A stretch of DNA of 32,000 bases from a bacterium. Lineage in GTDB: Bacteria; UBP7; UBA6624; JBBIMK01. Location of the stretch: contig JBBIMK010000004.1 in the NCBI GenBank assembly GCA_037444445.1, positions 60,001 to 92,000 of the forward strand, given 5' to 3'. Positions 5,236-22,780 of this stretch are shown piece after piece (position 1 is the first letter of the stretch; each line of letters starts with the position of its first letter). Both the position numbers and the translations under genes were made by a program. The notes beneath the pieces were generated by a model. That model searched no databases and was not told the origin of the DNA. It saw only the letters and a program-made list of their open reading frames with translations.

Positions 5236-6471
5236 TTATGAAATAGCGGAGGTTACCACGCCTGCGCCCACGGTTTTTCCACCTTCGCGAACGGCGAAGC
5301 GAACACCTGCGTCCATAGCCACCGGGTAAATCAATTCCACCTCCATTAACACATGGTCACCCGGGTTGGCAAATTGCACCTCTTGCTTCGTGTCGGGGTC
5401 CATCAGGCGGAGGATACCCCCGGTCACATCAGCGGTTCTGACGAAGAACTGGGGCCGGTAGCCTGGGACGAAAGGCGTGTGGCGACCACCCTCTTCCTTC
5501 GTCAGGACATAGGTATCTGCGACAAATTTTTTGAACGGCTTCACCGAGCCGGGCTTGGCCAGCACCTGACCCCGCTCCACCTCTTCTTTTGCGATTCCTC
5601 GGAGGAGAACGCCCACATTATCTCCTGCCCGGGCATCATCGAGGATTTTTCGGAACATCTCCAGGCTGGTGGCTACGGTAGTGCGGATTTCACCGGACAG
5701 ACCGACGATGTCCACCTCCTCACCTGGCTTGAGGATGCCCTTTTCCACACGGCCCGTGACCACAGTTCCTCGTCCTGTGATGGTAAAGATGTCCTCAATG
5801 GGCATAAGAAAGGGCTTATCCACATCTCGGGTGGGGGAGGGTATGTAACGGTCCATCGCATCAATTAATTCCCACACAGGCCCGCACCAGGGGCATTCTC
5901 TCTTTCCACAGGCACACTCCATGGACTTCAAGGCGGAGCCCTGAATAATCGGGCAGTCTGGGTCGAACTGATACTTTTTCAACAGTCCGCGCACATCTTC
6001 TTCAATCAAGGCCACCATGTCCTTCCAGCCTTCTCCCTCGGATTGCTGGAGAATGTCGGTCTTATTGATGAAAACGAGGATAGCGGGGACATTCACCTGG
6101 CGAGCCAGGAGGATATGCTCCCGGGTCTGGGGCATCGGGCCATCGTCCGCTGCCACTACGAGGACGGACCCATCCATCTGGGCTGCGCCAGTAATCATAT
6201 TTTTGATGTAGTCCACATGCCCCGGGCAATCAATGTGAGCATAATGACGCTGGGGAGATTCATATTCCGCATGGTGGACGTTGATGGTGACGCCTCGCGC
6301 TTTCTCTTCGGGTGCGTTATCAATCTCCTCGTAGGATTTCGCCACCGCCAGATTCGCCTTCGCCAGAACCTTGGTGATGGCGGAGGTCAAAGTCGTCTTG
6401 CCATGGTCTACATGACCGATGGTGCCGATGTTCACATGTTCCTTACGCCGCTCAAATTTTTCTTTTGCCAT
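5236..6471 (-). CDS. tuf: Elongation factor Tu
   Basis: 411 aa with [15 protein letters not shown] and NK.D G-motifs. An AGGAGG SD lies upstream (complement of 6481-6486). Confidence 0.98.
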
Positions 6472-6514: not shown

Positions 6515-6587
6515 AGCCCATGATCGGGATTGAACCGATGACCTCTTCCTTACCAAGGAAGCGCTCTGCCGGCTGAGCTACATGGGC
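6515..6587 (-). tRNA. tRNA-Thr (anticodon GGU)
   Basis: Hand-folded cloverleaf on the minus strand: acceptor GCCCATG/CATGGGC, D arm GCTC..GAGC, anticodon arm CTTCC-TTGGTAA-GGAAG, T arm ATCGG-TTCAATC-CCGAT. 73 nt, with no encoded CCA. Confidence 0.9.
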
Positions 6588-6619
6588 TATCCGGCTCTGA
6601 TTGCGTTCCCACCCTGGCG

Positions 6620-6692
6620 AGCGGGAGACGGGACTCGAACCCGCGACCCTCAGCTTGGAAGGCTGATGCTCTTCCACCTGAGCTACTCCCGC
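6620..6692 (-). tRNA. tRNA-Gly (anticodon UCC)
   Basis: Acceptor GCGGGAG/CTCCCGC, anticodon arm TCAGC-CTTCCAA-GCTGA, T arm GCGGG-TTCGAGT-CCCGT. 73 nt, with no encoded CCA. Confidence 0.9.
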
Positions 6693-6702
6693 AGAAGCAT
6701 CC

Positions 6703-6785
6703 TGGAGGGGGCAGGATTTGAACCTGCGAAGCCTTCCGGCAATGGGTTTACAGCCCATCCCCTTTGGCCACTCGGGCACCCCTCC
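6703..6785 (-). tRNA. tRNA-Tyr (anticodon GUA), type II with long variable arm
   Basis: GGAGGGG acceptor, anticodon arm ATGGG-CTGTAAA-CCCAT, 14-nt variable arm, T arm GCAGG-TTCAAAT-CCTGC. It closely parallels the E. coli tRNA-Tyr layout. The order Tyr-Gly-Thr-tuf mirrors the E. coli tyrU-glyT-thrT-tufB arrangement. Confidence 0.9.
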
Positions 6786-6834
6786 TCCGCCACAGGCGAG
6801 ATATTTGCCCATCTGCTCAAATCCAAAATTATAA

Positions 6835-6864
6835 AGTATAATAGACCTATACCCATTCTGTCAA
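6835..6864 (-). promoter_or_regulatory. Putative sigma70-type promoter for the tRNA-tuf operon
   Basis: On the minus strand there is a consensus -35 TTGACA (6864-6859), an 18-nt spacer, and -10 TATACT (6840-6835). It lies about 50 nt upstream of the tRNA-Tyr 5' end. Confidence 0.4.
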
Positions 6865-6884
6865 GTATCTTACAATTATTAGTG

Positions 6885-7571
6885 ATGAAACCCGGATGCC
6901 TCTTCATCCTCGCCACCCCGATTGGAAACCTTCAGGACCTATCACCCAGAGCCCTAAAGGTGCTTAAAGAAAAAAACCTATTCTGCATTGAAAATACGCA
7001 CTCCCTTAAAAAAATTCTTACCTCCTTTTCCCTATCTTCGCCTCAGCATATTATATCTTACTATGGTGAGAAAGAAAAATCAAGAGTGGGGAAAATACTC
7101 CATTGGCTCAGGGAGGGTAAGGATGTAGTCCTGGCGACTGAGAGTGGGACGCCAGGGGTATCTGACCCGGGGATGTATCTCGTCCGTGCGGCACTAAAGG
7201 AGGGAATACCGGTGGTTCCCGTGCCGGGTCCATCTGCCCTGTCCACCGCTCTTTCAGTGAGCGGCTTCCCTTCCACTCCTTCCATTTTTCTGGGCTTCTT
7301 GCCCGCCCGAAGAGGGAAACGGAGAAAACTTCTGAAAGCCTGCGGCAATTTAAAGGCTACCCTCGTGATATTCGTCCCCCCGCATGATGCTATCTCTCTC
7401 CTGCAAGAACTGCTGGAGATTCTGGGCAACCGTGAGGCCACTCTCTGCCGGGAAATGACCAAAATGTTTGAGGAAATTAAACTCTCCACTCTCTCTGAAT
7501 TTCTCCAGGATTTTCAATCCCGGAAGGAAATTCGGGGTGAGATCACCCTCGTCATCAGCGGAAAGAAATAA
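6885..7571 (+). CDS. rsmI: 16S rRNA (cytidine1402-2'-O)-methyltransferase RsmI
   Basis: The track ORF 6582..7571 is trimmed to ATG 6885, because its upstream part is the antisense of three tRNAs. Motifs seen: LFILATPIGNLQDLSPRALKVLKE, ESGTPGVSDPG, and VPGPSA of the tetrapyrrole-methylase-fold RsmI family. Confidence 0.85.
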   Translation: MKPGCLFILATPIGNLQDLSPRALKVLKEKNLFCIENTHSLKKILTSFSLSSPQHIISYYGEKEKSRVGKILHWLREGKDVVLATESGTPGVSDPGMYLVRAALKEGIPVVPVPGPSALSTALSVSGFPSTPSIFLGFLPARRGKRRKLLKACGNLKATLVIFVPPHDAISLLQELLEILGNREATLCREMTKMFEEIKLSTLSEFLQDFQSRKEIRGEITLVISGKK

Positions 7572-7639: not shown

Positions 7640-9262
7640 CTACTCACCCACAGAACTGCACAGAGTTTTCACGGTAGCCTGCGTTGTGGTGCTGGTGACT
7701 TTCATCTCTTGAATAGTTGTGTTCGTAGCGAAAGATGCCTTCATAGATGTGGTAGAACTTACGCTCTTCAGTGAAGCATCCTCCATTATGGCGGAAGTAT
7801 CCTGACTGAAGTCGGGTGGGCAATCAGATGAAATAAGACCATTGGTATCCAACTTCAAAATCCAGAGGTCTGAGCAGGGATACCCATCACAGTTTCCCCC
7901 TGCACCGAAAGTAGTGGTAGAGCCTACCACAATGTAACCGCCATCTTTCGTGTGCTGAACCGAGCGGGCGACATCCTGCCCAGACCCACCGTAAGCCTTC
8001 TGCCACTGTATATTACCAGAAGAATCCAATTTCAGAACCCAAGCATCAGCATATCTTCCACCCAGAGAATTCGTTTCACCAGCCACTATATAGCCACCAT
8101 CAGCCGTCAGGTCAATGGAATACGGATAACTCACACCTTCGTCCGAGTAGATTTTCTGCCACTTCATATGGCCATGAGAATTCAATTTTAGAATCCACAA
8201 ATCATTACCAGTTTCCTGAGAAAGGCTGGTAGCACCTGCCACGATGTATCCTCCATCGGGGGTCTGATGGATGGCATTTGCACTTGTAGGTGATAGGCCA
8301 CCATATGCCCTTATCCAGACCACTTGCCCTTTAGCATCTACCTTCAGAAGCATAGCATTTTCCACCCCGTAGATATTCCAAATACCCTCTACTTTTTGAA
8401 TAAATTTCCCTCCCAGGATATATCCACCACCGGTGGTTTGCAGGATACAACAGGGAAAAGCAAAATAAGGACTGTCAGAAGTTTTTTGCCACTCCATATT
8501 TCCCCTGGAATCCAGTTTCAAAATCCAAATTTTACTGCGAGTTTCACAGTTCACACATGCAGTGATGATATATCCGCCATCTTTCGTTTGTAAGATATAA
8601 GATGGCTCTTCCTTTGCTGCGGTGCCGTAAGTCTTTTGCCAGAGTATATCTCCGTCAGCGCTCAGTTTCAGGACCCAGAGGTCGACAGTATCAGCACCAC
8701 GAAGAGAGGTGTATCCTGCCACAATATATCCGCCGTCGGTGGTTTGCCGGATAGATTTTGCCACATCCGTAGAGATACGATGATAGGCCTTTTGCCATTT
8801 TACATTTCCCACAGAGTCTAAGTTCAGAATCCAGAAATCATTTTTGTGGCCATAGACGGTAGTAGAACCCACGACGACGAATCCCCCCTCCCTTGTCTGC
8901 TGAACAGCGTATGCGTAATCACTGGAGGGACCGCCGTAAGTTTTTGCCCAGGTACTTATCACAGAGGTTCTCGTAAAAGTGGCTCTGCAAGATGTATTGG
9001 CATTCATCGTTATTCTGCCATCCGCACAGTCCGGGTCCCCGGACCATCCATCAAAATGCCAGAGTGGGGCAGGTAGAGCCACAAGGCTGACAATTGCCCC
9101 GTGGTAAAAGAATCCTGAGCACTCCGTTCCGCAGTGAATTCCTGCTGGTTCACTTTTCACCATTCCATTCCCTTTTTTTATCACCGTCAATTGATACTGG
9201 GGAGGTTCTTCTATTCCGCCGAAAGTGAACACACTCATTGCAAAAATGCATATTTCAGCCAT
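7640..9262 (-). CDS. Probably secreted repeat protein: divergent InlB-B-repeat-like N-domain plus seven ~50-aa propeller-like repeats
   Basis: The N-domain is YQLTVIKKGNGMVKSEPAGIHCGTEC...FDGWSGD..C....RATF. It is followed by seven repeats of the pattern W.K.YGG...D.A.S..QT.DGGYIVAG.T......D.W(V/I)LKLD..G...W. The true start may lie upstream at a non-canonical codon (see findings). Confidence 0.75.
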   Translation of the reverse strand: MAEICIFAMSVFTFGGIEEPPQYQLTVIKKGNGMVKSEPAGIHCGTECSGFFYHGAIVSLVALPAPLWHFDGWSGDPDCADGRITMNANTSCRATFTRTSVISTWAKTYGGPSSDYAYAVQQTREGGFVVVGSTTVYGHKNDFWILNLDSVGNVKWQKAYHRISTDVAKSIRQTTDGGYIVAGYTSLRGADTVDLWVLKLSADGDILWQKTYGTAAKEEPSYILQTKDGGYIITACVNCETRSKIWILKLDSRGNMEWQKTSDSPYFAFPCCILQTTGGGYILGGKFIQKVEGIWNIYGVENAMLLKVDAKGQVVWIRAYGGLSPTSANAIHQTPDGGYIVAGATSLSQETGNDLWILKLNSHGHMKWQKIYSDEGVSYPYSIDLTADGGYIVAGETNSLGGRYADAWVLKLDSSGNIQWQKAYGGSGQDVARSVQHTKDGGYIVVGSTTTFGAGGNCDGYPCSDLWILKLDTNGLISSDCPPDFSQDTSAIMEDASLKSVSSTTSMKASFATNTTIQEMKVTSTTTQATVKTLCSSVGE

Positions 9263-16942: not shown

Positions 16943-19012
16943 ATGATGGCGAGTATTTTCAAAATTGTATTTCGTAGCGGTGCTTTCGTCGCTGCGGTTT
17001 TTTTCATTCACTCCACCACTCTACCCGGGCAGGAGGAGGTTCCCCTGATTTCGCGGAGAGTGTTCTTCGGGAATCCGGACAGGGCAAGCCCCCAATTAAG
17101 CCCGGATGGCACACAACTGGCATTTCTGGCTCCGGATGAGGGTGTGCTGAATGTCTGGGTAGGTTCTGTGGACGACCCGACCTCTGCGAAGCCGGTCACC
17201 CACGACCGTCTTCGTGGCATCAGGATATACTTCTGGGCTTACACCAACCGTCACATCATTTATTTGCAGGACAAGAACGGGGACGAGAACTGGCGGGTCT
17301 ATAGCGTGGATTTAAGGTCGGGGCAGGTGATGGACCTGACCCCTGTGGAGGGCGTGCAAGCCCGTATCCAGCAGGTCAGTGAGAAGTTTCCTGCGGAGAT
17401 TCTTATCGGGCTGAACGACAGGAATCCGCAATTCCACGACCTGTATCGGGTGAATATCCTCAGCGGTAGCAAAAGGCTGATTCAGGAAAACCCGGGTTTT
17501 CTTGACTTTCTCACCGATGACTACTATCGGGTTCGCTTTGCTTTCCGCCTGACGCCCGACGGAGGAAACGAGGTGCTGAAACCCACGGAAGAAGGGAAGT
17601 GGGAGCCTTTTATGACCATTTCTCAGGAAGATTTACTGACCACCCAACTTATCAGATTTGATAAGTCTAACCGGGTTCTGTATATGACAGACAGCCGGGG
17701 GCGCAACACCGCAGCGCTGGCTTCCATTGACCTCCGAACCGGAGAGGAGGAAATTATCGCTGAAGACCCCCGAGCGGACATCAGTGATGTGATTGCCCAC
17801 CCTGCGGAAAAGAATATGGAAGCGGTCGCCTTCACCTACGACCGGAAGGAGTGGAAGATTCTTGACCCTGCATTGAGGGAGGATTTCGCCTATCTCAGCA
17901 CCATCAGTAAAGACGATTTGAATATCACCAGTCAGTCGCTGGATGACCGGAAGTGGATTGTGACATTTACGGTGGACAACGGTCCCATTCGCTATTATGT
18001 GTATGACCGGGATTTGAAAGAGGCGAAGTTTTTGTTTACCAATCGCAAGGCGCTGGAAGGCTTGCCTCTGGCAAAAATGCATCCGGTGGTCATACGCTCC
18101 CGGGATAACCTGAACCTGGTGAGCTATTATACCCTGCCAGTGTGGAGCGATGCGGATGGCAACGGCAAGCCGGAAAAACGATTGCCCCTGGTTCTCACGG
18201 TTCACGGCGGCCCCTGGTGGCGCGACAACTGGGGCTATAATCCCTGGCATCAGTGGTTTTCTAACCGGGGCTATGCAGTGATGAGTGTAAACTTCCGCGG
18301 CTCCACTGGCTTCGGCAAGAAGTTTATCAACGCCGGCGACAAAGAGTGGGGCGGAAAGATGCACGATGACCTCATAGATGCGGTGAACTGGGCTGTTGAG
18401 CAGGGAATTGCTGACCCAAAGCATATCGCCATTATGGGTGGAAGTTACGGAGGCTACGCCACTCTCGTGGGTATGACCTTCACGCCGGATGATTTCGCCT
18501 GCGGGGTGGACATCGTGGGGCCCTCTAACCTTGTCACCTTTATGAACGCCATCCCCCCTTACTGGAAGCCTCTGTTAGACCTCTTCACATCCCGCGTGGG
18601 CGACCACCGAACAGAAGAAGGCAGGGCGTTTCTCCTCGCCCGCTCTCCTCTCACTTATGTGGACCGGATACAGAAGCCGCTGTTAATCGGACATGGTGCC
18701 AACGACCCGAGGGTGAAGCAGGCAGAGTCGGAGCAGATTGTAAAAGCCATGCAGGGGAAGAACATTCCCGTTACTTATGTTCTTTACCCGGACGAGGGGC
18801 ATGGATTTGCCCGCCCACAGAACAACCTGTCCTTTTATGCCATCACCGATGTATTTCTTGCAAAATGCCTGGGCGGGCGCTACGAGCCCATCGGCGATGA
18901 CCTCACAGGCTCCAGCCTCCTGGTCCCCGCTGGGGCTGACCTGATTCCCGGCTTGCCCCGGGCTCTGAAAGCCCTATCCGCACCCACGAAAATCCTGCCT
19001 GCACTCCCCTGA
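16943..19012 (+). CDS. S9-family serine peptidase (prolyl oligopeptidase / acylaminoacyl-peptidase type), secreted
   Basis: N-terminal beta-propeller region plus C-terminal alpha/beta hydrolase with GGSYGGY (nucleophile Ser), HGANDPRV (Asp) and EGHGF (His). Start set at ATG 16943: AGGAGG at 16933-16938, and the product begins with the signal-like MMASIFKIVFRSGAFVAAVFFIHS. The track start at 16853 is the alternative. Confidence 0.88.
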   Translation: MMASIFKIVFRSGAFVAAVFFIHSTTLPGQEEVPLISRRVFFGNPDRASPQLSPDGTQLAFLAPDEGVLNVWVGSVDDPTSAKPVTHDRLRGIRIYFWAYTNRHIIYLQDKNGDENWRVYSVDLRSGQVMDLTPVEGVQARIQQVSEKFPAEILIGLNDRNPQFHDLYRVNILSGSKRLIQENPGFLDFLTDDYYRVRFAFRLTPDGGNEVLKPTEEGKWEPFMTISQEDLLTTQLIRFDKSNRVLYMTDSRGRNTAALASIDLRTGEEEIIAEDPRADISDVIAHPAEKNMEAVAFTYDRKEWKILDPALREDFAYLSTISKDDLNITSQSLDDRKWIVTFTVDNGPIRYYVYDRDLKEAKFLFTNRKALEGLPLAKMHPVVIRSRDNLNLVSYYTLPVWSDADGNGKPEKRLPLVLTVHGGPWWRDNWGYNPWHQWFSNRGYAVMSVNFRGSTGFGKKFINAGDKEWGGKMHDDLIDAVNWAVEQGIADPKHIAIMGGSYGGYATLVGMTFTPDDFACGVDIVGPSNLVTFMNAIPPYWKPLLDLFTSRVGDHRTEEGRAFLLARSPLTYVDRIQKPLLIGHGANDPRVKQAESEQIVKAMQGKNIPVTYVLYPDEGHGFARPQNNLSFYAITDVFLAKCLGGRYEPIGDDLTGSSLLVPAGADLIPGLPRALKALSAPTKILPALP

Positions 19013-19207
19013 CTTCCCCGCTGGCTTGCAAATCTCTGCAAAATATACCTGCCCACTTTCGTGGTGCCAGCCCCGATGACGAACATCTGGGAAGAAAACT
19101 GGCTATTCTGGAAAAAAAAGCGGTATACAGAATAGTGATATATGTGAGTGGAAAAAAGAGCGCCGTAAAGCAGAAGAGGAAAAAGGCGGGTGCGTTCAGA
19201 AAAAAAG

Positions 19208-19213
19208 TATAAT
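19208..19213 (+). promoter_or_regulatory. Candidate -10 box (TATAAT) for the bioY leader
   Basis: A perfect TATAAT about 195 nt upstream of the bioY ATG. It would give a long 5' UTR containing the structured element at 19258-19340. Confidence 0.3.
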
Positions 19214-19257
19214 ATGGGCAAGCCGGTGAAGGAAAGACCACCACAGCGTATAACACA

Positions 19258-19340
19258 GCATAAAAGGTTCCCGCGGGAGATAGCCTGCGTCATCTCACGG
19301 GGTCACCCAAATTTCGGCTACGCCGAAACTTCTTTTATGC
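19258..19340 (+). promoter_or_regulatory. Structured leader element, copy L (closing stem + long hairpin + short hairpin + U-rich tract)
   Basis: A perfect 9-bp closing stem GCATAAAAG (19258-19266) / CTTTTATGC (19332-19340). Inside it is an imperfect hairpin at 19267-19308, then CCCAAA, then the perfect 7-bp hairpin TTTCGGC-TAC-GCCGAAA (19312-19328). A homologous layout occurs at 20480-20539. Confidence 0.5.
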
Positions 19341-19407
19341 CGGGAATGTTTAATGAAATTGTGGGCAGTGACTTGAAAACATCGAAAAATTAGAAAGGAG
19401 AAAAGCA

Positions 19408-20076
19408 ATGCAGAATATAGCAATAGCGGAAAAGTATTTTAGAGCAAGATATTTATTTTTCAAATGGCGTTACAGTTTAGCTCTTGTAAATAAGATTGCT
19501 TTAGCATTAGGGATGGCCTGTGTGACTGGACTTTTTGCCCAAATAAAAGTCTCTCTTCCCTGGACTCCGACACCAATCACCGGTCAGACTTTTGCTGTAT
19601 TATTGGCTGGAGTCCTTCTTGGGAGATGGTGGGGAGGAATAAGCCAGGCAATATATGTAGTATTAGGTGTGGTTGGTGTTCCCTGGTTTGCAGGCTTAAG
19701 AGGGGGTTATGGCGTTCTCATTGGTCCCAGCGGAGGATATATAATTGGTTTTATCTTAGCTGCCTTGTTCATTGGCCATTTCACTGACAAATATATTAGA
19801 GCAAGGAGTTTTCTTTGCATGTTTACCTTTATGCTATTTGCCAATTTTGTCCTGATACACATACCGGGGTTAATACAGTTAGGAGTATGGTTTTACATAG
19901 CCAAAGGCACTGGATTAACTCTTTGGAAGCTGCTCTGGATGGGAACTATTCCATTCGTTATCGGGGACATAACTAAAATTGTGGGTGCGGCAGCATTGGC
20001 GAAAGCCATTACTCCCAAGGAAGCCTACAATGGTGAAGTGGATGCCGAGAGGGCAAAGAAATGGCGAATATTTTGA
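19408..20076 (+). CDS. bioY: Biotin transporter BioY (ECF S-component family)
   Basis: 222 aa and multi-TM, with PITGQTFAVLLAGVLLG and GPSGGYIIGFILAA, typical of BioY. SD AAAGGAG upstream. Confidence 0.88.
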   Translation: MQNIAIAEKYFRARYLFFKWRYSLALVNKIALALGMACVTGLFAQIKVSLPWTPTPITGQTFAVLLAGVLLGRWWGGISQAIYVVLGVVGVPWFAGLRGGYGVLIGPSGGYIIGFILAALFIGHFTDKYIRARSFLCMFTFMLFANFVLIHIPGLIQLGVWFYIAKGTGLTLWKLLWMGTIPFVIGDITKIVGAAALAKAITPKEAYNGEVDAERAKKWRIF

Positions 20077-20477
20077 AAATTCGTGCTCACCACCTCTTAT
20101 GCATACAAGGTTTTCAAGGATACGGTTATAGTGAAGATTTTGTAAAGAATATGATTGAAATTATTAAGAATATAGATTCAAATCCTGAATCAGAAATAAT
20201 TACTGAATGTGACATTATCTGTTCTTATTGCTCTCACAATGTAGAAGGAGTATGTCAAAAAAAGCCCGATTCTGCTCAAAAGGTTAAAAATATGGATATG
20301 CGAATTTTGAGAAAATTACAATTAAAAGATGGGATAAGAGGCAGAGTCAAAGATTTTCTTTCCCTTGCAAATACAAAGTTCAGAAATATTTCTGCCGTTC
20401 AAGATATATGTGGCGATTGTGATTGGAAAGAGAAATGCCTTTGGTTTATTTCACGAGTTGCCCACAACGGCAGATAA
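20061..20477 (+). CDS. DUF1284-family Cys-rich (putative Fe-S/metal-binding) protein
   Basis: An IRAHHLLCIQGFQGYGYS N-terminus plus a CSYCSHN...C...CGDC..KEKC cysteine pattern. Overlaps the bioY end by 16 nt. Confidence 0.7.
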   Translation: MANILKIRAHHLLCIQGFQGYGYSEDFVKNMIEIIKNIDSNPESEIITECDIICSYCSHNVEGVCQKKPDSAQKVKNMDMRILRKLQLKDGIRGRVKDFLSLANTKFRNISAVQDICGDCDWKEKCLWFISRVAHNGR

Positions 20478-20479
20478 CA

Positions 20480-20539
20480 GCGGATAAAAGGGAAATCAAA
20501 GATTTCCCCAAATTGCCTTCGGCAACTTCTTTTATCCGC
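20480..20539 (+). promoter_or_regulatory. Structured element, copy M (three-way-junction-like)
   Basis: A perfect 11-bp closing stem GCGGATAAAAG (20480-20490) / CTTTTATCCGC (20529-20539). It encloses GGAAATC-AAA-GATTTCC (20491-20507), CCAAA, and TTGCC-TTC-GGCAA (20513-20525), then CTT. Confidence 0.5.
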
Positions 20540-20590
20540 AAGCCGTTATGTGAAATCGGGCTATGGATATAAAATAGGATAATAGATAGA

Positions 20591-21949
20591 ATGAGGAAAA
20601 GATTAGAAGAAACAATTGTTATTTTTATTAGTACCCTTGAATGGAGTGTTTTAGCTGCAATCATCGGGATGGCAGTTGGATTATCAACAACCGTATTTTT
20701 GAAAATACTCAATTGGACTACATTTCTCACTCATCAATATTCTTATTATTATCTTTTCCTACCTGTTGCATTCTTTTTAAGTGCTTTATGTGTTCAATAT
20801 TTAGCACCTGATGCAGAAGGTCATGGAACAGAAAAGGTTATTGAAGCAATCCATAGATATTCTGGTAAGATAAAAGCAGTAGTTATTCCTGTGAAACTTG
20901 TTGCGTCTGTAATCACAATAGCCTTTGGTGGTTCAGCAGGGAAGGAAGGTCCTTGTGCTCAAATAGGTGGAGGAGTGTCATCTGTTTTTTGTGATATATT
21001 TAGATTTGATGATATTGATAGAAAAAAGTTGGTAATATGCGGTATTAGTGCAGGATTTGCTTCTGTATTTGGCACACCAGTAGCCGGTGCTATTTTTGGT
21101 GTTGAAGTTCTTTTTATTGGAAGTATCTTATATGATGTTCTTTTACCTTCATTTATTGCGGGAATTGTAAGTTATCATATCTCTTCGGCACTCAGAATTA
21201 CCTATTTTTATCATCCATTAAAATTTGTTCCTGTGTTTAGTGAATATCTTTTAATAAAAGTGATTATTGGAGGAATTTTTTGGGGCCTTGTTTCGTTTCT
21301 TCTGATTGAGACAATGAGATTTTTCCAAAATCAATCTTCTAAAATAGAATTATGGAAGCCATTGAAGGGTTTAATTGGCAGTTTGCTTCTTGTTGTTTTG
21401 ACTTTTATCTTCTCAACACAATTTCTCGGGCTTGGTTTGGAAACGATCCAGTCAACATTAGAAGGAACAAAAGTTATCTGGTATGCCTTTATTCTAAAAA
21501 TTATTTATACTGCTATTACCCTGAACTTTGGTGGTAGTGGTGGGGTAATAACACCTATATTTTTCATTGGAGCAACTTCTGGCTCACGATTTGCAGATTT
21601 ATTCGGGCTGGATAAAGCAACATTTTCTGCCATTGGTTTAGTGAGCGTTTTAGCAGGTGCAACCAATACTCCTATTGCGTCAAGTATAATGGCAATAGAG
21701 CTTTTTGGAGCAGGTATTGCTCCTTATGCTGCTTTGTCTTGTATCATTAGTTTTCTTATAACAGGACACAGAAGTATCTATCCTTCTCAGATACTCGTGA
21801 TTAAAAAATCTCCATCTATACAAATAGAGATTGGCAAAGAAATAGAGGAAATAACGCCAACGGTTCAACCAGGGAGAAAAAGCCTCACAAATGCGATTTT
21901 AAGAATTAGTAGAAAAATGAAAGAAAAGATTATTAAAGTGAAAAGATAA
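20591..21949 (+). CDS. ClC-family chloride channel/transporter (no CBS domains)
   Basis: 452 aa and polytopic, with GHGTEK, GSAGKEGPCAQIGGG (gating Glu present) and GGVITPIFFIGA selectivity-filter-like motifs. Confidence 0.85.
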   Translation: MRKRLEETIVIFISTLEWSVLAAIIGMAVGLSTTVFLKILNWTTFLTHQYSYYYLFLPVAFFLSALCVQYLAPDAEGHGTEKVIEAIHRYSGKIKAVVIPVKLVASVITIAFGGSAGKEGPCAQIGGGVSSVFCDIFRFDDIDRKKLVICGISAGFASVFGTPVAGAIFGVEVLFIGSILYDVLLPSFIAGIVSYHISSALRITYFYHPLKFVPVFSEYLLIKVIIGGIFWGLVSFLLIETMRFFQNQSSKIELWKPLKGLIGSLLLVVLTFIFSTQFLGLGLETIQSTLEGTKVIWYAFILKIIYTAITLNFGGSGGVITPIFFIGATSGSRFADLFGLDKATFSAIGLVSVLAGATNTPIASSIMAIELFGAGIAPYAALSCIISFLITGHRSIYPSQILVIKKSPSIQIEIGKEIEEITPTVQPGRKSLTNAILRISRKMKEKIIKVKR

Positions 21950-21960
21950 TGGCACGACTT

Positions 21961-22011
21961 CGCCTAACACAGGGTAAGAGGTTCCTCCATCGGGGTCACC
22001 CAGATTCCGCC
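21961..22011 (+). repeat. Partial copy R of the element (similar to the 5' half of copy L)
   Basis: CGCCTAACACAGGGTAAGAGGTTCC matches L 19247-19271 at 20/25 positions. CATCGGGGTCACCCAGATTCCG matches L 19297-19317 at 18/21 positions over the shared 21-nt core. L carries about 22 extra nt between the two blocks. Confidence 0.55.
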
Positions 22012-22120
22012 CCCTGGCTTCAGAAAAGGAAAGGGGGTGAATAAAACTGAAGAGGTGAGGTGAAATGAGAAAGAAAACCCCTGAATTAAGGCTGTTTATT
22101 TATGACGGAGGTGAGAAGGG

Positions 22121-22780
22121 ATGAATCCGGAGATTGTAAAGTTACGGGAGCAATTTCGTGAAGTTGGCGACCTCTCTCTGGAGATGGTGCGGCTGGCAAG
22201 TTCGGCTTATTTCATGGGCGATTACAGGCTTGCCCTTCAGGTTCTGGACCTGGAAAGGAAACTGAATCAAAAAGAGGTGGAACTGGAGCAAAATTGTCAA
22301 ATGGTTCTGACCCTTCATCCGATGGATGCTACCTCCATCCGCTGGATACTCTCCATTTTGCGCTCCTCTGTAAACCTGGAGCGGGTGGGCGACCATTGTT
22401 TCAAGTTAGCGAAGCGAGGGCAGGAACGCGGCAAGCCTTTGAATCATCCACAGGAGCCCACCCTCCGGGAACTCTCACAAGTGGCTTCCGGGATGTGGAT
22501 AGATGTTCTGCAAGCCTTCTATGATACCCATGGGGTTGCCGCCCAGACTATCCTGACGACTGACAGGTCTGCAAACCGCCTGAAAAAGGAGATTGTGGAA
22601 GGAATTCAAGCCTCCTGGGAAGCGGGAAAAACTTCTCCTTCCGATTACGAGGTACTGGTAACTGCCTCCGATTTAGAGCGCATTGCAGACCACGCCTGTA
22701 ACATTTCGGAAGAGATTATCGTTCTCATTTCGGGAGCGGCGGACCGGCGACAGGTCAGACGGGAGCGAGAAAAGTTGTAA
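22121..22780 (+). CDS. PhoU-family protein (two PhoU repeats)
   Basis: LERVGDHCFKLAK in the first half and LERIADHACNISEEI in the second, the classic duplicated PhoU motif. No pst genes are nearby. Confidence 0.8.
   Translation: MNPEIVKLREQFREVGDLSLEMVRLASSAYFMGDYRLALQVLDLERKLNQKEVELEQNCQMVLTLHPMDATSIRWILSILRSSVNLERVGDHCFKLAKRGQERGKPLNHPQEPTLRELSQVASGMWIDVLQAFYDTHGVAAQTILTTDRSANRLKKEIVEGIQASWEAGKTSPSDYEVLVTASDLERIADHACNISEEIIVLISGAADRRQVRREREKL

What the first reader, a model, noticed from the sequence alone, without database searches (positions are those of the whole stretch)
20480..20565. Second copy (M) of the element upstream of the ClC gene, with compensatory changes in the closing stem
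The 60 nt beginning 3 nt after the DUF1284 stop fold as a three-way junction. The closing stem GCGGAUAAAAG (20480-20490) / CUUUUAUCCGC (20529-20539) has 11 perfect bp. It encloses GGAAAUC-AAA-GAUUUCC (20491-20507), CCAAA, and UUGCC-UUC-GGCAA (20513-20525), followed by CUU. Relative to copy L, the junction strings CCCAAAUU and CUUCUUUUAU are conserved. The distal hairpin differs in length, and the outer closing stem differs (GCAU.../...AUGC versus GCGGAU.../...AUCCGC) while remaining fully paired. Similarity continues downstream: TGAAAT.G.GGGC at about 20551-20563 versus 19353-19366. The element lies about 52 nt from the ClC start, and copy L lies 68 nt from the bioY start. Two transporter genes in one island sharing a structured leader suggests a common cis-regulatory RNA or a small structured repeat family.
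Basis: seen in the sequence. Interest (0 to 1): 0.7.

Follow-up and report, generated by a model that had tools for sequence, protein, structure and literature searches.

The report
Gene-cassette recombination site, not RNA leader
The folded 60-nt element before the ClC gene is not a regulatory RNA but an integron-type (attC-like) recombination site marking the end of a mobile gene cassette, from a family near-identical across many bacterial and archaeal phyla whose partner recombinase appears to lack the domain thought essential for integrons.

Summary
Window 20480-20539 folds as a three-way junction, and copy L (19246-19359) shares the junction strings with compensatory stem changes.

The interpretation as a shared leader RNA does not hold. 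The conserved unit is longer (20470-20556). It is bounded by integron core sites, R'' AGATAAC (overlapping the DUF1284 stop) and R' GTTATGT. A third, decayed copy N (21960-22066) follows ClC.

A relative's empty site shows that window 19020-22108 is a 3.1-kb low-GC insertion between an S9 peptidase gene and phoU. It reads L | bioY-DUF1284 | M | ClC | N.

A pattern scan found at least 114 family members in many bacterial and archaeal phyla. They lie in co-oriented arrays directly after ORFs, and 18 of 20 pairs covary.

In related contigs, cassette content switches exactly at the GTT of an attI-like site, just downstream of a Xer/IntI-like tyrosine recombinase, and again at the GTT of the attC-like sites. 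This recombinase lacks the IntI-specific I2 domain. No canonical IntI was seen. The window itself holds no recombinase, so it is a CALIN-like remnant.

Verdict: an attC-type cassette site belonging to an apparently undescribed integron variant.

The parts
19020..22108 (+). Inserted low-GC cassette block (L | bioY-DUF1284 | M | ClC | N), lying between the S9 peptidase gene and phoU.
   Evidence: Relative L128 has the S9 peptidase stop and the phoU ATG 26 nt apart. blastn gives L128 5056-7043 = window 17032-19019 and L128 7051-7722 = window 22109-22780. GC is 36-44% in the block against about 52% in the flanks.
19020..19245 (+). Left 226 nt of the insertion. It has no ORF and no match elsewhere; its origin is unexplained (possibly a gene-less cassette or platform remnant).
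   Evidence: Similarity to the fetched loci is confined to the attC-like M site and its first few tens of nt downstream; nothing in 19020-19245 matches.
19246..19359 (+). Copy L, an attC-like site. R'' GTATAAC is at 19248-19254. The stem arms are CAGCATAAAAG / CTTTTATGC. It has a long P1a hairpin and P2 at 19312-19328. R' GTTTAAT at 19348-19354 is slightly off consensus.
   Evidence: CM R1 scores 71.8 bits, E 1.6e-15. See also the alignment and the folds.
19408..20477 (+). Cassette 1 cargo: bioY (19408-20076) and DUF1284 (20061-20477).
   Evidence: Pfam PF02632 at 3.7e-38 and PF06935 at 6.7e-22.
20470..20556 (+). Copy M, the element of the finding: a complete attC-like site. R'' AGATAAC at 20472-20478 overlaps the DUF1284 stop (20475-20477). 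The stem is 20480-20490/20529-20539, P1a is 20491-20507, the junction CCAAA is 20508-20512 and P2 is 20513-20525. A 5-nt bulge AAGCC lies at 20540-20544. R' GTTATGT is at 20545-20551, followed by GAAAT at 20552-20556.
   Evidence: CM R1 scores 96.7 bits, E 8e-22. See the folds. Its 51-nt core is identical to cores in 10 loci from both domains.
20591..21949 (+). Cassette 2 cargo: ClC-family channel/transporter.
   Evidence: Pfam PF00654 at 2.4e-72.
21960..22066 (+). Copy N, a decayed attC-like site. R'' GCCTAAC (21962-21968) and the 5' half are kept. The closing stem is lost and R' has mutated (GTGAGGT GAAAT).
   Evidence: CM R1 scores 18.8 bits, E 0.036, full-length alignment with broken pairs. 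The DNA fold gives z of about 0.1 on both strands.

Best explanation
M (20470-20556) is an attC-type site-specific recombination site that closes a mobile gene cassette. L is a second intact site and N a decayed one. Together they delimit two cassettes, bioY-DUF1284 and ClC, within a 3.1-kb block inserted between an S9 peptidase gene and phoU.

Proposed mechanism (inferred by analogy with integrons). When the DNA is single-stranded or extruded, the two arms pair. R''/R' (..TAAC/GTTA..) form one recombinase-binding box. The 10-11-bp stem (GCGGATAAAAG/CTTTTATCCGC) forms the second box. The two boxes are separated by a 1x5-nt asymmetric loop, and two variable hairpins cap the junction. A tyrosine recombinase exchanges strands at G|TT of R'. 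Everything 3' of that G therefore belongs to the next cassette.

Shown by comparison:
- Cassette content in related contigs switches exactly at these GTTs.
- The recombinase encoded next to such arrays is a Xer/IntI-like enzyme without the IntI I2 domain.

In this window no recombinase is present. The array is therefore a CALIN-like remnant. Cassette 1, flanked by two intact sites, could at most be mobilised in trans.
For: 1. Core sites. 114 of 118 database hits carry ..RYYYAAC-A-[stem].. and ..[stem]-N4-5-GTTAKRY-GAAAT at the ends.

2. Structure. The three-way junction is 94.1% paired, and 18 of 20 pairs show compensatory changes. The covariation score is 0.59, against 0.145 for shuffles (0 of 500 reach it) and at most 0.11 for slid controls.

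3. Arrays. There are 204 CM hits in co-oriented arrays with 0.3-2.6 kb spacing. A same-strand ORF stop abuts the 5' end in 75 of 126 cases (random 18 +/- 4). A same-strand ORF starts within 120 nt after the site in 76 of 126 cases (random 21 +/- 4).

4. Cassette logic. The R' extension of site n is complementary to the R'' extension of site n+1: 4.06 of 6 positions versus 3.20 for random pairs (p = 5e-4), with perfect matches in 27% versus 5%.

5. Natural crossovers.
- L120, L121 and L122 are identical through the recombinase gene up to ...aaGTTA, then diverge.
- L125 and L126 diverge right after ...ccaaGTT and re-converge at the GTTATAC of the preceding attC-like site.
- The same pattern of first-cassette turnover is seen in L132/L133 versus L134.

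6. Recombinase.
- One Xer/IntI-like family is present in 9 of 114 loci, and no canonical IntI is seen.
- The best PDB hit is VchIntIA, but only 26 residues span the stretch where IntI has 68, so I2 is missing.
- Contigs chosen only by recombinase homology also carry co-oriented CM hits downstream.

7. The window block is an insertion. A relative has the empty site, the block has low GC, and only L, M and N match the model in 32 kb.
Against: - No recombinase or attI-like site lies in the window, so activity here is not shown.
- The L-to-M cassette ends match poorly (2 of 6) and L's R' is off consensus.
- The insertion's outer junctions do not fall on recognisable GTT crossovers. There are 226 nt to the left of L and about 42 nt to the right of N.
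- The geometry differs from textbook attC: a 1x5 loop replaces the symmetric unpaired spacer plus extrahelical bases.
- I could not run IntegronFinder/HattCI.
- Everything is comparative. No recombination was observed.
- Most loci are MAG contigs, so taxonomic labels may include binning errors.
Confidence: 0.85

Rival explanations
1. These are ordinary integron attC sites (a classical CALIN). They are recombined by a canonical, I2-bearing IntI encoded elsewhere, and the I2-less recombinases next to arrays are not the cognate enzymes.
For: - R''/R' match the integron consensus.
- CALINs are common, and IntI1 recombines very diverse attCs, including archaeal ones (PMC9668308).
- The same ANME-1 genome as locus L014 was reported with a CALIN on a neighbouring contig.
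Against: - No canonical IntI was found in about 0.65 Mb of flanks around 114 family loci, whereas 9 loci hold I2-less recombinases.
- An attI-like site ending in GTTA sits about 100 nt after the recombinase stop, and cassette turnover starts exactly there.
- The published archaeal attCs that were tested have a different interior, and none holds ATAAAAGG, CCCAAATT or CTTCTTTTAT.
Confidence: 0.15
2. It is a cis-regulatory leader RNA or riboswitch shared by bioY and ClC.
For: - The fold is stable and lies upstream of two transporter genes.
- The stems covary.
Against: - No Rfam match.
- Downstream genes in the family are unrelated: toxin-antitoxin, restriction-modification, methyltransferases and others.
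- The element is anchored to the upstream ORF's stop, and in the window it overlaps the DUF1284 stop.
- There is no G.U bias.
- Both strands fold equally well.
- Core sites and GTT crossovers are present.
Confidence: 0.03
3. It is only an intrinsic (bidirectional) transcription terminator of bioY-DUF1284.
For: P2 followed by CTTCTTTTAT is flagged terminator-like on the + strand in both L and M. P1a followed by TTTTAT is flagged on the - strand in M.
Against: - Terminator-like sites are not enriched in the region: 4 found versus 2.7 +/- 1.7 in shuffles.
- A terminator needs neither the invariant junction nor the outer stem nor the R''/R' sites, and does not explain cassette turnover at GTT.
- Termination could still be a side effect.
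Confidence: 0.04
4. It is a REP/BIME- or MITE-type dispersed repeat moved by a transposase.
For: It is a short palindromic repeat with many copies across genomes.
Against: - In 32 kb there are only three copies, all inside the inserted block.
- Copies are co-oriented, lie after ORFs and occur in arrays.
- The associated gene is a tyrosine recombinase, not a RAYT or IS200/IS605 transposase.
- The exchanged units are whole genes bounded at GTT.
Confidence: 0.03

Closest known systems
Integron attC (59-base element) sites and gene cassettes, for example attCaadA7 and Vibrio VCRs
   Same: - Inverse core sites RYYYAAC...GTTRRRY.
- An imperfect palindrome with a variable centre that folds as a single strand.
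- Position at the 3' end of usually single, co-oriented ORFs in arrays.
- Crossover at G|TT, so the two ends of one cassette are complementary.
- An attI-like site beside the recombinase gene, with the newest cassettes next to it.
- Toxin-antitoxin and defence cargo.

   Different: - The interior is a long perfect stem plus a three-way junction with invariant GG..CCCAAAT..ACTTC strings.
- A 1x5-nt asymmetric loop replaces the symmetric unpaired central spacer and extrahelical bases.
- The R box extends to about 9-12 bp.
- The sequence is near-identical across phyla and domains.
- The linked recombinase lacks the IntI-specific I2 domain and is often co-oriented with the cassettes.

CALINs (clusters of attC sites lacking an integrase), including those in archaeal MAGs (Ghaly et al. 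2022, PMC9668308)
   Same: The window holds two or three sites less than 4 kb apart with no integrase, which is the operational definition of a CALIN. The habitats and phyla are the same (Asgard, ANME-1, DPANN).
   Different: The published, experimentally tested archaeal attCs have the canonical ..TAACAAnTC.. interior and do not belong to this sequence family. I could not test whether IntegronFinder calls these sites.
Xer/dif systems, IMEX elements and Acinetobacter pdif modules
   Same: The recombinase scores as high against archaeal XerA (NF040815 above its cutoff; PDB 4A8E) as against IntI, and it has no I2 domain. As in these systems, genes are bracketed by recombinase sites.
   Different: The sites are 60-110-nt folded palindromes with integron core sites, not 28-bp 11-6-11 dif-like duplex sites. 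The arrays are co-oriented with an attI-like entry point.
Integrase-mediated cassette insertion outside att sites (attG; bioRxiv 10.1101/2022.09.11.507474)
   Same: It offers a route by which cassettes end up between housekeeping genes, as they do here.
   Different: The window's outer junctions do not coincide with R' GTT crossovers, so this route is not demonstrated here.

Membership tests
Integron attC site / gene cassette | Inverse core site R'' (RYYYAAC) at the 5' end and core site R' (GTTRRRY) at the 3' end. | tested here: met
   M has AGATAAC / GTTATGT. L has GTATAAC / GTTTAAT (weak). N has GCCTAAC / a mutated R'. The family consensus is ..yMTAAC / GTTAkrY, and TAAC and GTT are at least 90% conserved.
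Integron attC site / gene cassette | Imperfect palindrome between the core sites that folds as a single strand and has a variable terminal structure. | tested here: met
   The fold has z = -5.6 to -6.8. In the family, 94% of cells are paired and 18 of 20 pairs are compensatory.
Integron attC site / gene cassette | Canonical unpaired central spacer plus extrahelical bases between the R and L boxes. | tested here: not met
   The class has R''-A-[10-11 bp perfect stem]...[stem]-NNNNC-R', that is, a 1x5 asymmetric loop with no bulged bases in the stem. The canonical attC from PMC9668308, folded alongside, shows the usual internal loops and bulge.
Integron attC site / gene cassette | Sites lie at the 3' ends of co-oriented ORFs in arrays. 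The crossover is at G|TT, so the two ends of a cassette are complementary. | tested here: met
   Arrays are seen, and ORF statistics. The end-complementarity test gives p = 5e-4. Natural breakpoints fall at GTT.
Integron (complete platform) | Adjacent IntI tyrosine recombinase carrying the IntI-specific additional (I2) domain. | tested here: not met
   The window has no tyrosine recombinase. In family loci, the linked recombinases fall below the TIGR02249 cutoff and match it in two stretches that skip profile positions 179-234. Only 26 residues cover IntI4 residues 173-241.
Integron (complete platform) | An attI site next to the integrase gene where new cassettes enter. | tested here: met
   This holds for related loci, not for the window. 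Two short palindromes followed by GTTA.. lie about 100 nt after the recombinase stop, and cassette divergence starts there.
Riboswitch / cis-regulatory leader RNA | Match to a described RNA family, consistent association with functionally related downstream genes, and G.U tolerance on the transcribed strand. | tested here: not met
   No Rfam hit. Downstream genes are unrelated. G.T is 50 versus A.C 59.
Intrinsic terminator | G+C-rich hairpin followed by a T run; termination in vivo. | tested here: inconclusive
   The pattern is present in L and M, but such sites are not enriched over shuffles. Function is not testable with these tools.
REP/BIME or MITE | Dispersed intergenic copies and a linked RAYT or transposase. 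| tested here: not met
   Only three copies occur in 32 kb, all in the inserted block. The linked gene is a tyrosine recombinase.
Xer/dif-type site (IMEX, pdif module) | A 28-bp duplex site with two 11-bp arms and a 6-bp spacer. | tested here: not met
   The conserved unit is 85-115 nt with a folded interior.

The most novel reading that the evidence does not exclude
M belongs to a previously undescribed, cross-domain integron-like system. Its parts are:
- a Xer/IntI-like tyrosine recombinase that naturally lacks the I2 helix;
- an attI-like site made of two palindromes plus GTTA;
- arrays of cassettes that each end in a highly sequence-conserved three-way-junction site.

It would be a sister or ancestral form of integrons. 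In it, recognition would rest on conserved sequence (the shared CGGATA-type half-sites in the attI-like and attC-like stems) rather than on I2 contacts with extrahelical bases.
Probability: 0.4. Interest if true: 0.8.

Novelty: new variant of a known kind. Interest (0 to 1): 0.58.

Why it matters
For this window, the result removes a false riboswitch candidate. It also explains a low-GC transporter island as two horizontally acquired cassettes.

More broadly, integron integrases are defined by the I2 domain. That domain is described as necessary for cassette capture and for single-strand recombination, and the field notes a lack of evolutionary intermediates (PMC7790495).

A natural cassette platform with integron core sites, GTT crossovers and an I2-less recombinase, present in both Bacteria and Archaea, would supply such an intermediate. 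It would also make the origin of integrons testable by experiment.

The 51-nt core of M is identical in MAGs labelled Bacteroidota, Dehalococcoidia, Aerophobetes, Methylomirabilis, Chloroflexi, Methanosarcinales, Thermoplasmatales and ANME-1. This points to very wide recent cassette traffic in anoxic and subsurface communities.

Tried and rejected
- **Rfam.** Neither the gathering threshold (whole window) nor the E <= 10 search of 19000-20800 gave a hit on L or M; the gathering search also gave none on N.
- **BLAST of M.** No match in 72,556 plasmids or 50,697 phages. There was one hit in IMG/VR. The family is therefore not plasmid- or phage-borne in cultured collections.
- **Exact look-up of window proteins.** PhoU, ClC and P0121 are not on record, and the cluster names are empty. 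The host is therefore unnamed. It is bacterial by its L11-L1-L10-L7/L12, NusG and EF-Tu genes. The nearest named S9 peptidases, at 67-69% identity, are from Bipolaricaulia, NC10 and Chloroflexi.
- **Family-agnostic detector.** AAC-N-stem...stem-N3-6-GTT was no more frequent than on reversed sequence (413 versus 501), so I dropped it as a statistic and used it only to read example sites.
- **Strand asymmetry.** G.T versus A.C counts (50 versus 59, p = 0.44) argue against a sense-RNA constraint. They cannot tell which DNA strand is the substrate.
- **Sequence strings in PMC9668308 supplements.** None found.
- **Literature searches** for an I2-less integron-like platform found none in the held library. 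This is not proof of absence.
- **tblastn of BioY, DUF1284 and ClC** against the fetched loci gave no hits. The recurring 20-nt 5' flank (tgcccgcaacggcagataac) therefore belongs to the element, not to DUF1284.

Full report
**1. The observation.**
- The sequence at 20480-20539 is exactly as described.
- As RNA it folds into the three-way junction as the minimum-energy structure: -26.3 kcal/mol, z = -5.6, 0 of 200 shuffles as good.
- As DNA both strands fold equally well, with z = -5.9 and -6.8.
- Copy L upstream of bioY shares CCCAAATT...CTTCTTTTAT. That pattern occurs only twice in the window, against 0.00 expected.
- No Rfam family matches L or M, either at gathering thresholds or at E <= 10.

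**2. The unit is larger, and there is a third copy.**
- The pairwise alignment of L and M extends outward to ..ATAACA on the left and GTT..TGAAAT on the right.
- Right after the ClC stop I found a third element, N. It keeps TAACACAG..TAAGAGGTTCC..GGGGTCACCCAGATT but has lost the closing stem.
- bioY, DUF1284 and ClC form a 36-44% GC stretch in a genome of about 52% GC.

**3. Relatives elsewhere.**
By my own estimate, about 3 chance hits were expected. Four hits looked like chance.
- The other 114 come from many bacterial phyla: KSB1, Aerophobetes, Dehalococcoidia, Atribacteria, Nitrospirota, WOR-3, CPR and others. They also come from archaeal groups: ANME-1/2, Altiarchaea, DPANN and Asgard.
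- All carry ..RYYYAAC-A just before the stem and N4-5-GTTAKRY-GAAAT just after it. These are the integron inverse core (R'') and core (R') sites.
- In M these are AGATAAC at 20472-20478, overlapping the DUF1284 stop, and GTTATGT at 20545-20551.
- M's 51-nt core is identical in ten loci from both domains.
- At least some archaeal assignments are sound. One family site lies 700 nt from an archaeal Nre gene on a single-cell genome contig. A family recombinase follows an archaeal ribosomal-protein/SUI1/RNase P p29 operon.

**4. Structure.**
- On 150 family members, 94.1% of cells are paired and 18 of 20 pairs show compensatory changes.
- The covariation score is 0.59, against 0.145 for shuffles (0 of 500 reach it) and at most 0.11 for slid partners.
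- The junction strings (GG, CCCAAAT, ACTTC) are invariant, while the stems vary.
- G.T (50) and A.C (59) cells are equally frequent. This is what a DNA palindrome predicts, not a sense-strand RNA.

**5. Cassette behaviour.**
- A covariance model (R1) finds only L, M and weakly N in the window.
- In the fetched loci R1 finds 204 hits, in co-oriented arrays with 0.3-2.6 kb spacing.
- A same-strand ORF ends at the element's 5' end in 75 of 126 sites (random 18 +/- 4).
- A same-strand ORF starts within 120 nt downstream in 76 of 126 sites (random 21 +/- 4).
- The R' extension of a site is complementary to the R'' extension of the next site rather than to its own: 4.06 of 6 positions versus 3.20 for random pairs (p = 5e-4), with perfect matches in 27% versus 5%. 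This is the signature of integron cassettes, in which the crossover at G|TT assigns the rest of R' to the following cassette.

**6. The partner recombinase.**
- Clustering the ORFs of the loci gave one recurrent family of tyrosine recombinases. It is present in 9 of 114 loci. No canonical IntI was present.
- NCBIfam places the family at NF040815 (tyrosine recombinase/integron integrase), above that model's cutoff. It falls below the integron-integrase cutoff, matching TIGR02249 in two stretches that skip the additional domain.
- The best PDB hit is VchIntIA (2A3V), but 26 residues stand where IntI has 68, so I2 is missing. XerA scores nearly as well.
- In six loci the gene lies upstream of, and co-oriented with, the array. 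The roughly 100 nt after its stop hold two palindromes followed by GTTA.., which is an attI-like site.
- I then took homologues chosen blind to the DNA motif and fetched their contigs. Where several contigs share the same recombinase and upstream genes, the genes immediately downstream differ. They encode toxin-antitoxin, restriction-modification, GmrSD and small ORFs. Co-oriented R1 hits follow those ORFs.
- The breakpoints are exact. L120, L121 and L122 diverge after ..aaGTTA. L125 and L126 diverge after ..ccaaGTT and re-converge at the GTTATAC of the preceding, different attC-like site.

**7. The window.**
- A syntenic relative at about 80% nucleotide identity (L128) has the S9 peptidase stop and the phoU start 26 nt apart.
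- Homology runs to window 19019 and resumes at 22109. Window 19020-22108 is therefore an insertion that carries L, bioY-DUF1284, M, ClC and N.
- No tyrosine recombinase is encoded in the 32 kb.
- N no longer folds better than shuffles (z about 0.1). L's R' is off consensus, and the L-to-M cassette ends match only 2 of 6.
- The array therefore looks like an old, partly decayed CALIN-type remnant. How the block entered this position is unresolved, because the outer junctions do not fall on GTT crossovers.

**8. Comparison with known systems.**
- Functionally this is integron logic. By membership it fails two textbook criteria.
- First, the interior lacks the canonical unpaired spacer and extrahelical-base geometry (compare).
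- Second, the linked recombinase lacks I2. That domain is described as necessary for cassette capture and single-strand recombination, and natural intermediates are said to be lacking (PMC7790495).
- A published classification notes that the insertion is not fully conserved in its integron-like subgroup (PMC8138268). I found no description of cassette platforms with such enzymes.
- The archaeal attCs tested in PMC9668308 are of a different, canonical type. The same ANME-1 genome as locus L014 was reported with a CALIN on a neighbouring contig, so some related sites may already be counted as CALINs.

**9. Verdict.**
- The finding is real, but it is not a leader RNA. M is an attC-type cassette recombination site (confidence 0.85).
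- The family-level reading, an I2-less integron variant spread across both domains, is well supported by comparison but untested by experiment. I put it at about 0.7 for the recombinase being the cognate enzyme, and about 0.4 for the system being genuinely undescribed.
- A possible side role of P2 plus the T run as a terminator is left open.

Noticed in passing
L101 2243-3349 (-), and P0001-P0120: Many family recombinases carry an extra N-terminal stretch of about 85 aa with a conserved G-x-R-W-x-P-x-x-K-x-W-x-F/V-P motif. Pfam lists nothing for it (only PF13495, PF00589 and PF22823 further on).
   Followed up: no
L041 6383-7042 and upstream; L027 6326-7138; L040 4577-5383: Several array-linked recombinase genes look interrupted. 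L041 has an in-frame stop between the N-terminal part and the core. In L027 and L040 the N-terminal part is in another frame. These could be pseudogenes, assembly errors or recoding.
   Followed up: partly
L040, L101, L093, L078, L125 (about 100 nt after the recombinase stop); window 20481-20487: The attI-like palindromes (for example TATCCGCAATATTGCGGATA and GGATATCCGAA..TTCGGATA) share a CGGATA(A/T) half-site with the outer stem of M-type sites (GCGGATAAAAG). This may be a sequence-specific recombinase contact, and it could explain the unusual sequence conservation of these sites.
   Followed up: partly
window 19020-19245: The left 226 nt of the insertion is A-rich, has no ORF and has no match in any fetched locus. 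Its origin is unexplained (gene-less cassette, platform remnant or promoter region).
   Followed up: partly
L128 7037-7062 versus window 19013-19030 and 22095-22120: The empty site reads CTTCCCC-CAACAGA-AGGTGAAAG. It contains an AAC (GTT on the other strand) that resembles an R''-like or secondary target. The window's junctions cannot be matched to a clean crossover.
   Followed up: partly
window 20466-20471 / 20543-20548: In M, AACGGC pairs with GCCGTT. This gives an alternative 6-bp outer helix that competes with the TAAC/GTTA R-box pairing in the DNA fold.
   Followed up: no
L125-L127 6571-7031 and 7859-7944: Just upstream of the intact recombinase lie two short ORFs with recombinase Pfam hits (fragments of a second recombinase gene). 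A YhfC gene followed by a weak attC-like hit lies there too. This suggests tandem or nested platforms.
   Followed up: no
L120-L126, L132-L134 (downstream of the recombinases): Cassette cargo next to the recombinases is dominated by toxin-antitoxin pairs (ParE, RelB, HicAB), restriction-modification genes, GmrSD and methyltransferases. This resembles sedentary chromosomal integrons.
   Followed up: partly
window 7640-9262 (-): A 540-aa ORF with weak Kelch/beta-propeller hits contains five roughly 150-156-nt DNA repeats (families D1 and D2). It is an internally repeated protein unrelated to the finding.
   Followed up: no
window 6515-6785 (-): Three tRNA genes in a row lie downstream of the EF-Tu gene (5236-6471, same strand). 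A + strand ORF at 6582-7571, whose Pfam TP_methylase match begins at residue 108, overlaps them at its 5' end. Its true start is probably after the tRNAs.
   Followed up: no
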